Shown: in pieces, positions 3,666 through 22,771 of the stretch
How the letters are laid out: each line of letters starts with the position of its first letter
Position numbering within the stretch: position 1 is the first letter of the stretch
Source: Alphaproteobacteria bacterium
GTDB taxonomy: Bacteria; Pseudomonadota; Alphaproteobacteria; UBA8366
Direction of reading: 5' to 3'
Length of the DNA: 64,000 nucleotides
Assembly: GCA_965228425.1 (NCBI GenBank)
Contig: OZ245815.1
Span: 1,090,495 to 1,154,494, forward strand
The notes under the pieces: model-generated
Database searches by the model: none
What the model was told of the DNA's origin: nothing
Seen by the model: only the letters and a program-made list of their open reading frames with translations
Program-made: the position numbers and the translations under genes

Positions 3666-4805
3666 ATGTCCGACGACACCAAGCAATTCCCGAAAATCAC
3701 CGAGCAGGGCATGGACGCGCTGCGTCAGCGGATCGGGGTCAAGATCGAAAACACGCTCGAACCGTGGTGCCATGAAGCGACGCGGGACAACATCCGGCAT
3801 TATGCGCACGGAATCGGCGACGACAATCCATTGTGGTGCGATCCCGAATACGCGGCCGACACGCCGCATGGCGGGATCATCGCGCCGCCGTCGTTCCTAT
3901 TCGCCTGCAGCCGGATCATTTCGGGATATGTCGGCGGACTGCCGGGCGTGCATGCGATGTGGGCCGGAGCCGACTTCACCTGGCACGGTGTCATCCGCCG
4001 GAATGACGAGATTCACACGGAAGCGTCGCTCAAAGACCTGATCGAGCACGATACGCGGTTTTCCGGCCGGGCGGTGCAGCAGATTTACCATGTGAAGTTC
4101 TTCAACGGTGGCGGCGACCTGCTGGCGGAGGCGGACAGCTGGTGCTTTCGGACGGATCGCGATGCGGCGCGGGAAGAAGGCACGAAATACACCGAGCTTA
4201 AGGAAAAGCCCGACGTCGCGTATAGCGAGGCCGATCTGGCGGAATTCTACAAACATTACGAGGAGGAAGATGTCCGCGGGGCCACGCCGCGCTATTTCGA
4301 GGATGTCTCGGTCGGCGACGCGGTGCCGCGCATCGTCAAGGGGCCGATGACGGTTACCGGATTCATTGCCTACGCGCAGGGCTGGGGCGGTCTGTACATC
4401 CGCGCCAATAAACTCGCCTGGAAACAGGTCAAGGCGCACCGGGGACTGGGTATCAAGAATAAATACGGCATTCCCGATTGTCCGGAACGGGTGCATTGGG
4501 AAGACGAATTTGCAACGCGTGTCGGCGCGCCCGCCGCCTATGACTACGGGCCGGAGCGTTGTTCCTGGATGACGCACCATTTGACCAACTGGATGGGCGA
4601 CACAGGGTTTCTAAGGTCTTGTTATACGGAGATTCGCCGGCATAACCCAGTGGGGGACATGTTGTTCATCGACGGGACCGTGAAACGCAAATTCGTCGAG
4701 GATGGATTCGGTTATATCGAGATCGAACAACAGGCGGTGCAGCAGGATGGCGAGCTTTCGGCGCGGGGACATGGCGTCGTGCGGCTGCCGATGCGCAAAA
4801 AATGA
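3666..4805 (+). CDS. MaoC/FAS1-like double hot-dog acyl dehydratase (R-specific enoyl-CoA hydratase family)
   Basis: 379 aa, starting 27 nt after the CoA-transferase. RHYAHGIGDDNPLWCDPEYA is a typical MaoC-like dehydratase signature, and the length fits two hot-dog folds. Confidence 0.7.
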   Translation: MSDDTKQFPKITEQGMDALRQRIGVKIENTLEPWCHEATRDNIRHYAHGIGDDNPLWCDPEYAADTPHGGIIAPPSFLFACSRIISGYVGGLPGVHAMWAGADFTWHGVIRRNDEIHTEASLKDLIEHDTRFSGRAVQQIYHVKFFNGGGDLLAEADSWCFRTDRDAAREEGTKYTELKEKPDVAYSEADLAEFYKHYEEEDVRGATPRYFEDVSVGDAVPRIVKGPMTVTGFIAYAQGWGGLYIRANKLAWKQVKAHRGLGIKNKYGIPDCPERVHWEDEFATRVGAPAAYDYGPERCSWMTHHLTNWMGDTGFLRSCYTEIRRHNPVGDMLFIDGTVKRKFVEDGFGYIEIEQQAVQQDGELSARGHGVVRLPMRKK

Positions 4806-22119: not shown

Positions 22120-22293
22120 TGGAATTCCCCCGTTTTGATCTGACACATCCCGAGGCAAGTTTACGCTGCCGCCTTACGTCCGGCGTTCACCCTTGCGTGA
22201 GGGAAAAGCAGCACCGTCCCCAACACGTCTTTGGCGTTTGAGGTGGATTTCATCGGCATGATACCGTTGGCGTCAACCGAGAGGAGTGGACCC

Positions 22294-22734
22294 ATGACGG
22301 AAGTACCCAAATCGAGCGGTCCGGCGCCGGGATTTGCCAAGTCGCCCGGCTATCGCGTTGATATGGAGCCCAGCCCGAACCGCATTCGGGTGAAGATCGG
22401 CGATGAGGTGATCGCGGACTCGACGAATGCGTTGCTCATGCTCGAGACCAATCACAAGGACTTCTATTACTTTCCGCGTGCCGACATCCGCATGGATTTG
22501 ATGGTGCGCAGCGACAGCACGTCGTTCTGACCCTACAAGGGCCATGCGGCCTACTACTCCGTGCGAGTAGGCGATCGAACCGAAGAAGACATAGCCTGGT
22601 CTTATGAGACTCCGTATGACGAAGGAGAGTCCTACGCGGGGTATATCGCCTTCTATTGGGATAGGGTGGACCAATGGCTCGCGGACGAGGACGAAATCGC
22701 CGAGCAACCGTATAGAGCCGGCGAAAAGAAATGA
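22294..22734 (+). CDS. DUF427-domain protein interrupted by one in-frame TGA (22528-22530) at the conserved Cys position: candidate selenoprotein, or a recent pseudogene or sequencing error
   Basis: ATG 22294 with GAGGAG upstream. 78 codons are followed by TGA, then 67 more open codons in the same frame to TGA 22732-22734. The joined sequence ...NHKDFYYFPRADIRMDLMVRSDSTSF-x-PYKGHAAYYSV...DIAWSYETPYDE...GYIAFYW reads as a single DUF427 domain. Confidence 0.6.
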
Positions 22735-22771
22735 TGACTCGGCCGGTTAGCGGCGAAATGGTGGAGGTCTC

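What the first reader, a model, noticed from the sequence alone, without database searches (positions are those of the whole stretch)
22294..22734. DUF427 gene with a single in-frame UGA at the conserved Cys codon, followed by a SECIS-like hairpin
Seen in the sequence: the frame opened by ATG 22294 (GAGGAG RBS) hits TGA at 22528-22530. It then stays open in the same frame for 67 more codons, up to TGA 22732-22734. Both halves read as one DUF427 domain: ...FYYFPRADIRMDLMVRSDSTSF-[TGA]-PYKGHAAYYSVRVG...DIAWSYETPYDE...GYIAFYWDRV. As I remember the family, the core motif is T-x-C-(P/E)-(W/Y)-K-G-x-A-x-Y-Y, so the TGA occupies the column of the conserved Cys. A perfect 7-bp hairpin GCCTACT/AGTAGGC (22549-22555 and 22566-22572) has a 10-nt loop ACTCCGTGCG containing GU. 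It begins 19 nt after the UGA, which is inside the distance range described for bacterial SECIS elements. Established knowledge: a UGA aligned with Cys in homologues, with an intact downstream frame, is the standard signature used to discover selenoproteins. Inference: this could be a Sec-containing DUF427, and I do not recall that family among described selenoproteins. Equally possible are a very recent TGC/TGT-to-TGA nonsense mutation or a base-calling error. No selA, selB, selD or tRNA-Sec gene lies in this window.
Basis: partly seen in the sequence, partly recalled or inferred. Interest (0 to 1): 0.72.

Follow-up and report, generated by a model that had tools for sequence, protein, structure and literature searches.

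The report
Uncatalogued selenoprotein family: Sec-containing DUF427
The in-frame TGA in this small gene is almost certainly a selenocysteine codon, because dozens of bacterial species keep the same TGA at the family's conserved cysteine, which points to a selenoprotein family absent from the catalogues I could check and marks that cysteine as the likely active site of a protein of unknown function.

Summary
ATG 22294 opens a frame that hits TGA at 22528-22530 and stays open to TGA 22732-22734. The joined 146-aa product matches Pfam DUF427 end to end, and the TGA falls on the nearly invariant Cys of the C-P-[FYW]-K-G motif.

It is not an error or a recent nonsense mutation. A TGA-anchored DNA pattern found the same arrangement in 64 species-representative genomes from several phyla, 21 metagenome contigs and one further contig, and every hit is an in-frame DUF427 gene. 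Five syntenic relatives of the window (80-90% nucleotide identity) keep the TGA. The part after it is under strong purifying selection (dN/dS 0.03-0.16).

A hairpin that fits the bacterial SECIS geometry follows the UGA in each main clade. In the window's clade it pairs in 144 of 144 cells and retains rare codons. Cys-form orthologues of another clade lack it. In two Chloroflexota genomes the gene sits beside selD, which is itself a selenoprotein there.

DUF427 is absent from a 2026 catalogue of 119 prokaryotic selenoprotein families and matches no NCBIfam model. Public annotations truncate the gene at the TGA.

Sec machinery could not be checked in the window's own genome, and the protein's function remains inferred.

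The parts
22281..22286 (+). Shine-Dalgarno-like GAGGAG, 7 nt upstream of the start codon
   Evidence: Read directly from the sequence. The orthologue in L001 starts at the equivalent ATG.
22294..22734 (+). Full DUF427 gene read through the internal TGA: 146 aa with selenocysteine (U) at residue 79
   Evidence: PF04248 matched over 1-93 of 93, E 1.7e-31. The AlphaFold model has pLDDT 88.2 and TM 0.9 to PDB 3DJM. dN/dS is 0.07-0.26 upstream and 0.03-0.16 downstream of the TGA against orthologues.
22528..22530 (+). In-frame TGA, inferred Sec codon, at the column of the conserved Cys in C-P-[FYW]-K-G
   Evidence: Alignment A1 shows Cys in at least 90% of homologues at this column. The TGA is conserved in 64 genomes, 21 metagenome contigs and L001.
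22554..22570 (+). Conserved SECIS-like hairpin: 5' arm CUACUC 22554-22559, loop CGUGC 22560-22564, 3' arm GAGUAG 22565-22570. The loop starts 29 nt after the UGA.
   Evidence: 144 of 144 cells pair in 24 distinct clade A sequences, with a C-G/U-G/U-A series at the closing pair; slid controls give 35-61%. The 3' arm retains the rare codons GUA (3.8% of Val) and CGA (7.4% of CGN Arg). Synonymous diversity is 0.24 here against 0.44 and 0.50 in the flanks. Loop length, stem length, G at loop position 2 and spacing all fit the published bSECIS model. The isolated stem is only -5.5 kcal/mol.
22549..22572 (+).
   Evidence: It folds at -8.4 to -8.9 kcal/mol in the window. The outer pair fails in 18 of 24 orthologues and the second pair in 4 of 24, while the inner five pairs are conserved.
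22732..22737 (+). True stop: tandem TGA TGA
   Evidence: Read directly from the sequence. TGA is an ordinary stop in this window, ending 20 of 55 long ORFs, so the internal TGA needs a local signal to be recoded.

Best explanation
The gene 22294-22734 encodes a 146-aa DUF427 (beta-tent fold) protein in which UGA 22528-22530 is decoded as selenocysteine. The inferred mechanism is the standard bacterial one: SelB carrying Sec-tRNA(Sec) binds a SECIS hairpin inside the coding sequence just after the UGA, with its core at 22554-22570, and delivers selenocysteine to the ribosome. The gene belongs to a widespread Sec/Cys family found in Alphaproteobacteria, Dehalococcoidia and other Chloroflexota, Acidimicrobiia (Ca. 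Poriferisodalis), Tectomicrobia, Nitrospinota, Gemmatimonadota and others, mostly marine or sponge-associated MAGs. Sec replaces the nearly invariant Cys of the C-P-[FYW]-K-G motif. Shown here: family membership, the Cys column, conservation of the TGA, purifying selection on the downstream part, and a conserved structured RNA after the UGA. Inferred: that the inserted residue is Sec, that the hairpin is the SelB-binding SECIS, and that the Cys/Sec residue is a redox-active or nucleophilic catalytic residue, as it is in most known Sec/Cys families.
For: 1. The TGA falls on the conserved Cys column, and PF04248 spans both halves.
2. A TGA-anchored pattern with about 1 chance hit expected (my estimate) gave 64 hits in species-representative genomes and 21 in metagenomes. 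All are in-frame DUF427 genes, and L001 adds one more.
3. The window is syntenic with L014, L031, L039, L065 and L001 at 80-90% nucleotide identity, and all keep the TGA.
4. dN/dS downstream of the TGA is 0.03-0.16 at dS 0.36-1.9.
5. TGA is otherwise a normal stop here, including this gene's own stop.
6. Each main clade has a hairpin 14-30 nt after the UGA, built from different sequences. Clades B and D, L003/L008/L060 and L058 pass the published energy threshold and are rare among synonymous shuffles (p at most 0.03).
7. In clade A, 144 of 144 cells pair, with covariation and retained rare codons. In clade C, codons +6 to +12 are invariant at synonymous sites in 24 distinct sequences.
8. Natural control: Cys-form orthologues at 73-75% identity, with the same neighbours and the same local peptide, use common codons and lose the hairpin (+2.2 and -0.2 against -5.8 kcal/mol).
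9. In L049 and L052, selD lies next to the Sec-DUF427 gene and itself carries TGA at its canonical Sec site SHGAG-U-ACK, followed by a strong hairpin.
10. Sec forms are scattered among Cys forms in a rough NJ tree, as in other Sec/Cys families.
Against: Sec machinery (selA, selB, selC, selD) was not demonstrated for the window's genome or for any clade A genome. The window's conserved hairpin is weak as an isolated stem (-5.5 kcal/mol against the model's -7.5) and is not unusual against synonymous shuffles on one sequence (p = 0.16). Clade E hairpins have no G in the first two loop positions, and L059 has no qualifying hairpin. The covariation in clade A rests on essentially one compensatory event, which coincides with a low-GC subclade. 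The Cys-form control has only two independent sequences and belongs to clade C, not clade A. There is no protein-level evidence. SelD alone also serves selenouridine synthesis, although a UGA-containing SelD does imply Sec decoding.
Confidence: 0.9

Rival explanations
1. The gene is a pseudogene, or the TGA is an assembly artefact: a recent TGC/TGT-to-TGA nonsense mutation or a base-calling error in an ordinary Cys-type DUF427 gene.
For: A single in-frame stop in a single sequence is what a fresh nonsense mutation or an error looks like, and no Sec machinery lies in the window.
Against: The same TGA is present in 86 other independent assemblies from different projects and technologies. These include five syntenic relatives with dS of 0.36-1.9 relative to the window. 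The downstream 60 codons have dN/dS of 0.03-0.16, as constrained as the upstream half.
Confidence: 0.01
2. The UGA is recoded or read through, but not as selenocysteine. For example, Trp, Cys or Gly could be inserted by a near-cognate or suppressor tRNA, helped by the leaky UGA-C context and the downstream structure.
For: The UGA is always followed by C (the Pro codon CCN), which from my own knowledge is a weak termination context. Sec machinery was not shown for clade A genomes. The window's hairpin is modest.
Against: The recoded position is exactly the conserved Cys, the hallmark of Sec/Cys pairs. The hairpin geometry matches the bSECIS model, with spacing of 18-33 nt and G then U at the start of the loop in most clades. 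The host lineages use TGA as a normal stop, including for this gene. In L049 and L052 the gene lies beside a Sec-containing selD. Non-Sec read-through would not explain repeated replacement of one specific Cys in at least six lineages.
Confidence: 0.05
3. Translation really stops at 22530. The functional product is the 78-aa N-terminal fragment, or the gene is split into two polypeptides.
For: Public gene callers annotate exactly such fragments: P0018, and about 40 clusters of 69 aa for clade C.
Against: The residues immediately after the TGA (P-[FYW]-K-G-x-A) are the most conserved in the family, and no start codon precedes them. The downstream frame is under strong purifying selection in register with the upstream frame. 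The fold needs both halves, since strands 70-77 and 85-92 flank the site in a model with TM 0.9 to 3DJM. A split exactly at the Cys codon arising independently in many lineages is not credible.
Confidence: 0.02

Closest known systems
Bacterial selenoprotein genes with Cys-containing homologues (for example Sec/Cys forms of SelD, peroxiredoxin, AhpD-like and OsmC-like proteins, as listed in Table 1 of PMC13188914)
   Same: There is an in-frame UGA at the position of a conserved Cys. A stem-loop lies inside the coding sequence 16-37 nt downstream with G then U at the start of the loop. Sec and Cys forms are mixed in the family tree. Gene callers truncate the gene at the UGA. The family is enriched in marine and symbiont bacteria.
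   Different: The protein family, DUF427 (PF04248, beta-tent fold), is not among the 119 catalogued families or subfamilies and matches no NCBIfam model. It has no thioredoxin-like fold and no UxxC or CxxU motif. The Sec sits alone in a U-P-[FYW]-K-G loop.
DUF427 / PF04248 (PDB 3DJM, Rhodobacter sphaeroides RSPH17029_0682)
   Same: The domain matches in full. The sequence match to 3DJM has E 3.8e-17, and the model superposes at TM 0.9 and rmsd 1.3 A. The C-P-x-K-G motif and the A-W-S-Y-E motif are the same.
   Different: The members described so far, and the solved structure, carry Cys. Here the codon is UGA. No function is known for any member.
MsrB / SelR (methionine-R-sulfoxide reductase), another beta-tent fold protein with Sec and Cys forms
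   Same: DUF427 is assigned to the same fold class in PMC4287342. From my own knowledge, MsrB has a catalytic Cys that is replaced by Sec in mammalian MsrB1.
   Different: There is no detectable sequence similarity, and DUF427 systematically lacks the zinc site. Foldseek found only weak yippee-type matches (E 0.3-1) and no MsrB match. Whether the Cys/Sec positions are equivalent was not tested.

Membership tests
DUF427 (Pfam PF04248, NTP_transf_9) | Significant full-length match to the family HMM, above the gathering threshold | tested here: met
   108.3 bits against a cut-off of 22.1, E 1.7e-31, profile positions 1-93 of 93 spanning the TGA.
DUF427 (Pfam PF04248, NTP_transf_9) | Same fold as the solved family member 3DJM | tested here: met
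   AlphaFold model with pLDDT 88.2 and pTM 0.82. Foldseek to 3DJM gives E 2.6e-10, TM 0.87-0.92 normalised to the target, and rmsd 1.3 A.
Bacterial selenoprotein gene | In-frame UGA aligned with a conserved Cys in homologues | tested here: met
   The TGA column is Cys in at least 90% of aligned homologues. Close Cys-form orthologues exist for clade C.
Bacterial selenoprotein gene | UGA conserved in orthologues, with the downstream frame under purifying selection | tested here: met
   64 genomes, 21 metagenome contigs and L001 all carry it in frame. Downstream dN/dS is 0.03-0.16.
Bacterial selenoprotein gene | bSECIS geometry: 3-9 nt apical loop, 4-16 bp stem, G in the first two loop positions, 16-37 nt from the UGA to the loop (model quoted in PMC13188914) | tested here: met
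   The window has a 6-bp stem, the 5-nt loop CGUGC (G at position 2, then U) and 29-nt spacing. It is conserved in 24 of 24 clade A sequences.
Bacterial selenoprotein gene | bSECIS stability: MFE of -7.5 kcal/mol or lower | tested here: inconclusive
   The conserved 6-bp register is -5.5 kcal/mol. The window-specific 7-bp register is -8.4 to -8.9 but has a 10-nt loop. Clades B and D and several singletons pass, while clades A, C and E do not pass as isolated contiguous stems. No dedicated bSECIS predictor was available.
Bacterial selenoprotein gene | Sec machinery (selA, selB, selC/tRNA-Sec, selD) in the same genome | not testable with these tools
   It is absent from the 64-kb window and from all flanks. 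There is indirect support in other members: a Sec-containing selD lies adjacent to the gene in L049 and L052.
Bacterial selenoprotein gene | Selenium shown in the protein (75Se labelling or mass spectrometry) | not testable with these tools
   This needs an experiment.
Catalogued prokaryotic selenoprotein families (119 in PMC13188914; NCBIfam selenoprotein models) | Match to a listed family or domain identifier | tested here: not met
   PF04248/DUF427 is not in Table 1. There are no NCBIfam hits for representatives of clades A, B and C. It is not mentioned in the deep-Sep or GOS supplements or in the BSepDB text. No paper in the library combines DUF427 with selenoprotein.

The most novel reading that the evidence does not exclude
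DUF427 is a previously unrecognised and phylogenetically broad selenoprotein family, found in at least seven phyla and especially in marine and sponge-symbiont bacteria. Its single conserved Cys/Sec residue, in the U/C-P-[FYW]-K-G loop of a zinc-less beta-tent fold, is the catalytic redox or nucleophilic centre of an enzyme class that is still unknown. In some lineages it may be tied to selenium or thiol metabolism, given the adjacency to selD and neighbours of the MAPEG, DinB/mycothiol-S-transferase and pyridine-nucleotide-disulfide-reductase families.
Probability: 0.6. Interest if true: 0.7.

Novelty: new member of a known kind. Interest (0 to 1): 0.66.

Why it matters
First, it adds a widespread family to the prokaryotic selenoproteome that is missing from the current catalogues and annotation models. 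Public databases therefore hold these genes only as truncated fragments (about 40 clusters of 69 aa for one clade alone), and a curated model would correct many genomes at once.

Second, Sec/Cys pairs are among the most reliable pointers to catalytic redox cysteines. This gives the first concrete, testable functional clue for DUF427, a family with a solved structure since 2008 and no known function: mutate or assay Cys/Sec79 in the C-P-x-K-G loop.

Third, the hits are concentrated in MAGs named for sponge-associated and marine lineages (Ca. Poriferisodalis, Dehalococcoidia, Tectomicrobia, Nitrospinota) and in Tara contigs. This suggests that selenium use matters in those communities.

Fourth, the closely related Sec and Cys orthologues with and without the hairpin are a clean natural system for studying how a SECIS evolves inside a coding sequence.

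Tried and rejected
1. Whole-region MFE z-scores for the hairpin were uninformative for the window's clade (z about 0 on dinucleotide shuffles; z 0.46 on synonymous shuffles). I replaced them with conservation and covariation tests.

2. I looked for a second selenoprotein gene in the window as independent evidence of Sec decoding, first with a GC3 filter and then with a codon-usage model. Only the DUF427 TGA is credible. The other two candidates overlap confirmed genes on the opposite strand.

3. I looked for Sec machinery in the window. The flanks of L066-L086 were also negative.

4. An exact look-up of the neighbouring TauD protein, meant to identify the source record, found nothing on record.

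5. The TauD and MAPEG neighbours as a functional link: they are present only in close syntenic relatives and not in distant clade A members, so this is ordinary synteny.

6. Fold search for an enzymatic precedent returned only 3DJM and weak yippee-type beta-tent matches.

7. Literature: most "DUF427" hits are prefix matches to DUF4277 or DUF4278. One automated EC association (deoxyhypusine monooxygenase, score 0.333, "Silver") is too weak to use. Nothing was found on Ca. Poriferisodalis or on sponge-symbiont selenoproteins.

8. I left the third protein-database search unused, because I saw no query that would reach the sel genes of the clade A genomes.

Full report
OBSERVATION

The sequence is as described.
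- GAGGAG lies at 22281-22286 and the start ATG at 22294.
- The in-frame TGA is at 22528-22530. The same frame then stays open for 67 codons, to TGA 22732-22734, which is followed directly by a second TGA.
- The joined 146-aa translation matches Pfam PF04248 (DUF427, identifier NTP_transf_9) over all 93 profile positions (E 1.7e-31, 108 bits against a gathering cut-off of 22.1).
- TGA is an ordinary stop in this window, ending 20 of 55 long ORFs and this gene itself, so the genetic code is not reassigned.

THE TGA IS CONSERVED, NOT AN ACCIDENT

The first hint came from the protein search. The closest hit, P0018 (85% identity), ends at ...SDNTSF, exactly where the window's TGA falls. Its contig (L001, a JGI metagenome) carries TGA at that codon, and the frame continues PYKGHASYYSVRVGDRTEEDIAWS to the contig end.

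I then designed a DNA pattern anchored on TGA and the nearly invariant residues (U-P-[FYW]-K-G-x-A-x-Y-...-W-[SG]-Y). It matches the window once, with 0 expected from shuffles. By my estimate it carries about 40 bits, so about one chance match is expected in the genome collection.

The scan of 185,579 species-representative genomes returned 64 loci. In every one, the DUF427 N-terminal half lies in frame upstream of the TGA and the conserved C-terminal half follows it.

The hosts are all MAGs:
- about 20 Dehalococcoidia and other Chloroflexota;
- about 28 Acidimicrobiia and other Actinomycetota, many named Candidatus Poriferisodalis;
- 7 Alphaproteobacteria;
- Tectomicrobia, Nitrospinota, Gemmatimonadota, Betaproteobacteria, a Lambdaproteobacteria candidate and Baltobacteraceae.

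A clade-specific version of the pattern found 21 more genes in metagenomes, including Tara Oceans contigs. All are again in frame.

The window is syntenic over several kb with L031 (89.5% nucleotide identity), L014 (88%), L039 (84%), L065 (83%) and L001 (80%). These are related but distinct species, and all keep the TGA.

Against these orthologues, the 24-60 codons after the TGA have dN/dS of 0.03-0.16 at dS 0.36-1.9. That is as tight as, or tighter than, the upstream half. Sequencing error, a recent nonsense mutation and a dead C-terminal remnant are therefore excluded.

THE RNA AFTER THE UGA

A 2026 review quotes the bacterial SECIS model: an apical loop of 3-9 nt, a stem of 4-16 bp, G in the first two loop positions, 16-37 nt between the UGA and the loop, and an MFE of -7.5 kcal/mol or lower (PMC13188914).

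Each main sequence clade has a hairpin at that position, built from different sequences:
- Clade A (the window's): CUACUC-CGUGC-GAGUAG, spacing 29 nt.
- Clade B (Dehalococcoidia): GGACGCC-AGUUAUUGG-GGCGUCC, spacing 18 nt, -12.0 kcal/mol.
- Clade C (Acidimicrobiia): GCUACU-GGUC-AGUAGC, spacing 25 nt.
- Clade D (Gaiellaceae and other Actinomycetota): ACGGCCAG-GUA-CUGGUCGU, spacing 20 nt, -10.2 kcal/mol.

Clades B and D, L003/L008/L060 and L058 pass the energy threshold and are rare among synonymous-codon shuffles (p at most 0.03).

For the window's clade a single sequence is not convincing. The isolated stem is -5.5 kcal/mol, and 16% of synonymous shuffles do as well. The comparative signal is much clearer:
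- In 24 distinct clade A sequences the 6-bp register pairs in 144 of 144 cells. Only 1 of 500 shuffles reaches that, and slid controls give 35-61%. The closing pair shows a C-G / U-G / U-A series.
- Four-fold sites in the loop show all four bases, whereas the two four-fold sites in the 3' arm that face a U show only purines.
- That arm keeps GUA, the rarest Val codon in this genome (3.8%), in 20 of 24 sequences. The window also uses CGA there (7.4% of CGN Arg).
- Synonymous diversity at codons +5 to +15 is 0.24 against 0.44 upstream and 0.50 downstream. In clade C it is 0.08 against 0.36 and 0.25, and codons +6 to +12 are invariant in 24 distinct sequences despite the codons UCA, GUA and GCA, which I take to be rare in such GC-rich lineages.

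A natural control exists for clade C. P0090 and P0091 are Cys-form orthologues at 73-75% identity. They have the same neighbours and the same local peptide S-Y-W-S-V. They use UAU/UAC UGG UCG/UCA GUG ACG, and the hairpin collapses: +2.2 and -0.2 kcal/mol against -5.8.

LINK TO SELENIUM METABOLISM

The window contains no tRNA, no Rfam family and no selA, selB or selD.

There selD lies divergently within about 1 kb of the Sec-type DUF427 gene. Both SelD genes carry TGA at the canonical Sec site SHGAG-U-ACK (the UxxK motif in the review's table), followed by a strong hairpin. Those genomes therefore decode Sec.

THE PROTEIN

The AlphaFold model is confident (pLDDT 88.2, pTM 0.82). It superposes on PDB 3DJM, deposited as "protein of unknown function from DUF427 family", at TM 0.9. 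The next matches are weak yippee-type domains. This agrees with the published assignment of DUF427 to the beta-tent fold, alongside MsrB, Mss4, yippee and CULT but without their zinc site (PMC4287342).

Residue 79 lies in the loop between strands 70-77 and 85-92.

No function is known. By analogy with other Sec/Cys families, I infer that this residue is a redox-active or nucleophilic catalytic centre. That is an inference, not a result.

Neighbours differ between clades, which hints at thiol or redox chemistry but gives no conserved partner:
- MAPEG and a TauD-family dioxygenase in the window and its close relatives only;
- a pyridine-nucleotide-disulfide-type reductase in clade C;
- a DinB/mycothiol-S-transferase-like gene in L049;
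- an in-frame fusion to a PEP-mutase-family domain in L082.

A rough NJ tree without support values places Sec forms among Cys forms in at least six places.

COMPARISON WITH WHAT IS KNOWN

Mechanistically this is a standard bacterial selenoprotein gene. The family is not catalogued in anything I could check:
- PF04248 is absent from the review's table of 119 families and subfamilies.
- No NCBIfam model (release 20, June 2026) matches representatives of three clades.
- The deep-Sep and GOS supplements and the BSepDB text do not mention it.
- No paper in the library combines DUF427, PF04248 or COG2343 with selenoproteins.
- Public annotation truncates the gene. About 40 clusters of exactly 69 aa are clade C genes cut at the TGA, including the RefSeq MAG NZ_OZ242344.1 (P0124 is the L013 fragment).

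I cannot exclude a mention in a subscription paper or a database that is not held here.

VERDICT

My confidence is about 0.9 that UGA 22528 encodes selenocysteine.

The finding is a new member of a known kind: a selenoprotein family missing from the current catalogues, decoded by the known bacterial mechanism.

The main gaps are Sec machinery in this genome, protein-level proof, and the biochemical function of DUF427.

Noticed in passing
L052:5684-6730 (+) and L049:3607-4653 (+): The selD genes carry an in-frame TGA at the canonical Sec site (SHGAG-U-ACK; L052 position 5732, L049 position 3655), followed by a strong hairpin AGCUCAGC-CCG-GCUGAGCU. They lie divergently next to the Sec-type DUF427 gene and are followed by ABC-transporter genes (ABC_tran in L052, Phosphonate-bd in L049).
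   Followed up: partly
L082 (metagenome contig Ga0055584_100001841), gene around 3863-3940: A Sec-type DUF427 domain is fused in frame to a C-terminal PEP_mutase / isocitrate-lyase-family domain (427 aa; PF13714, E 5e-67). This fusion may hint at a substrate class.
   Followed up: partly
L006, L011, L023, L061 (clade D); L005, L034, L037, L060 (two-domain forms): In clade D the Sec lies in the only region that matches PF04248, at the C-terminal end of a longer protein; by eye the region before it looks like a degenerate, Cys-less DUF427 half. L034, confirmed by Pfam as a two-domain protein, has Sec in the first domain and Cys in the second; L005, L037 and L060 have long downstream extensions that look the same.
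   Followed up: partly
Clade C loci, e.g. L013:6197-6274 and L020:2572-2648: In most clade C loci a tRNA-Pro(GGG) gene lies a few hundred to about 1,000 nt upstream of the Sec-DUF427 gene, and where checked (L013 and the Cys-form loci L087-L091) a Pyr_redox_2/Reductase_C gene lies convergent downstream. The downstream reductase is thus shared with the Cys-form orthologues.
   Followed up: partly
Protein database hits P0094-P0190; P0018: About 40 clusters of exactly 69 aa from NCBI, ENA and Logan are clade C DUF427 genes truncated at the TGA. P0124 is the product called in RefSeq MAG NZ_OZ242344.1. This is a systematic mis-annotation that one curated model would fix.
   Followed up: yes
window:21427-22143 (+) versus window:21700-22158 (-): The 238-aa plus-strand ORF has no Pfam hit and overlaps, antisense, a MAPEG-family gene (PF01124, E 7.7e-18) that is conserved in L001, L014, L039 and L065. 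The plus-strand ORF is probably spurious.
   Followed up: partly
window:22772-23773 (+): A TauD/TfdA-family dioxygenase gene starts 37 nt after the DUF427 stop on the same strand and has its own GGAGG. It may be co-transcribed, but the pairing is found only in close relatives (L014, L031, L039, L069, L071).
   Followed up: yes
window:22732-22737: The selenoprotein gene ends in a tandem TGA TGA stop. The same codon therefore serves as Sec at 22528 and as stop 204 nt later.
   Followed up: no
window:24489-25256 (+); window:19451-19963 (-): A DUF533 protein (PF04391, E 1e-57) and a DinB-family protein lie within 3 kb of the gene. A DinB_2/mycothiol-S-transferase-like gene also follows the DUF427 gene in L049. 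This is a possible thiol-transferase theme, and I did not test it.
   Followed up: no
Clade E loci L002, L034, L037; L059: The clade E hairpins (GCGUCC-UACU-GGACGC) are very stable, and in L034 and L037 (borderline in L002) the region is significantly more structured than synonymous shuffles. They lack a G in the first two loop positions. L059 has no hairpin that meets the model. These may be non-canonical bSECIS variants.
   Followed up: no
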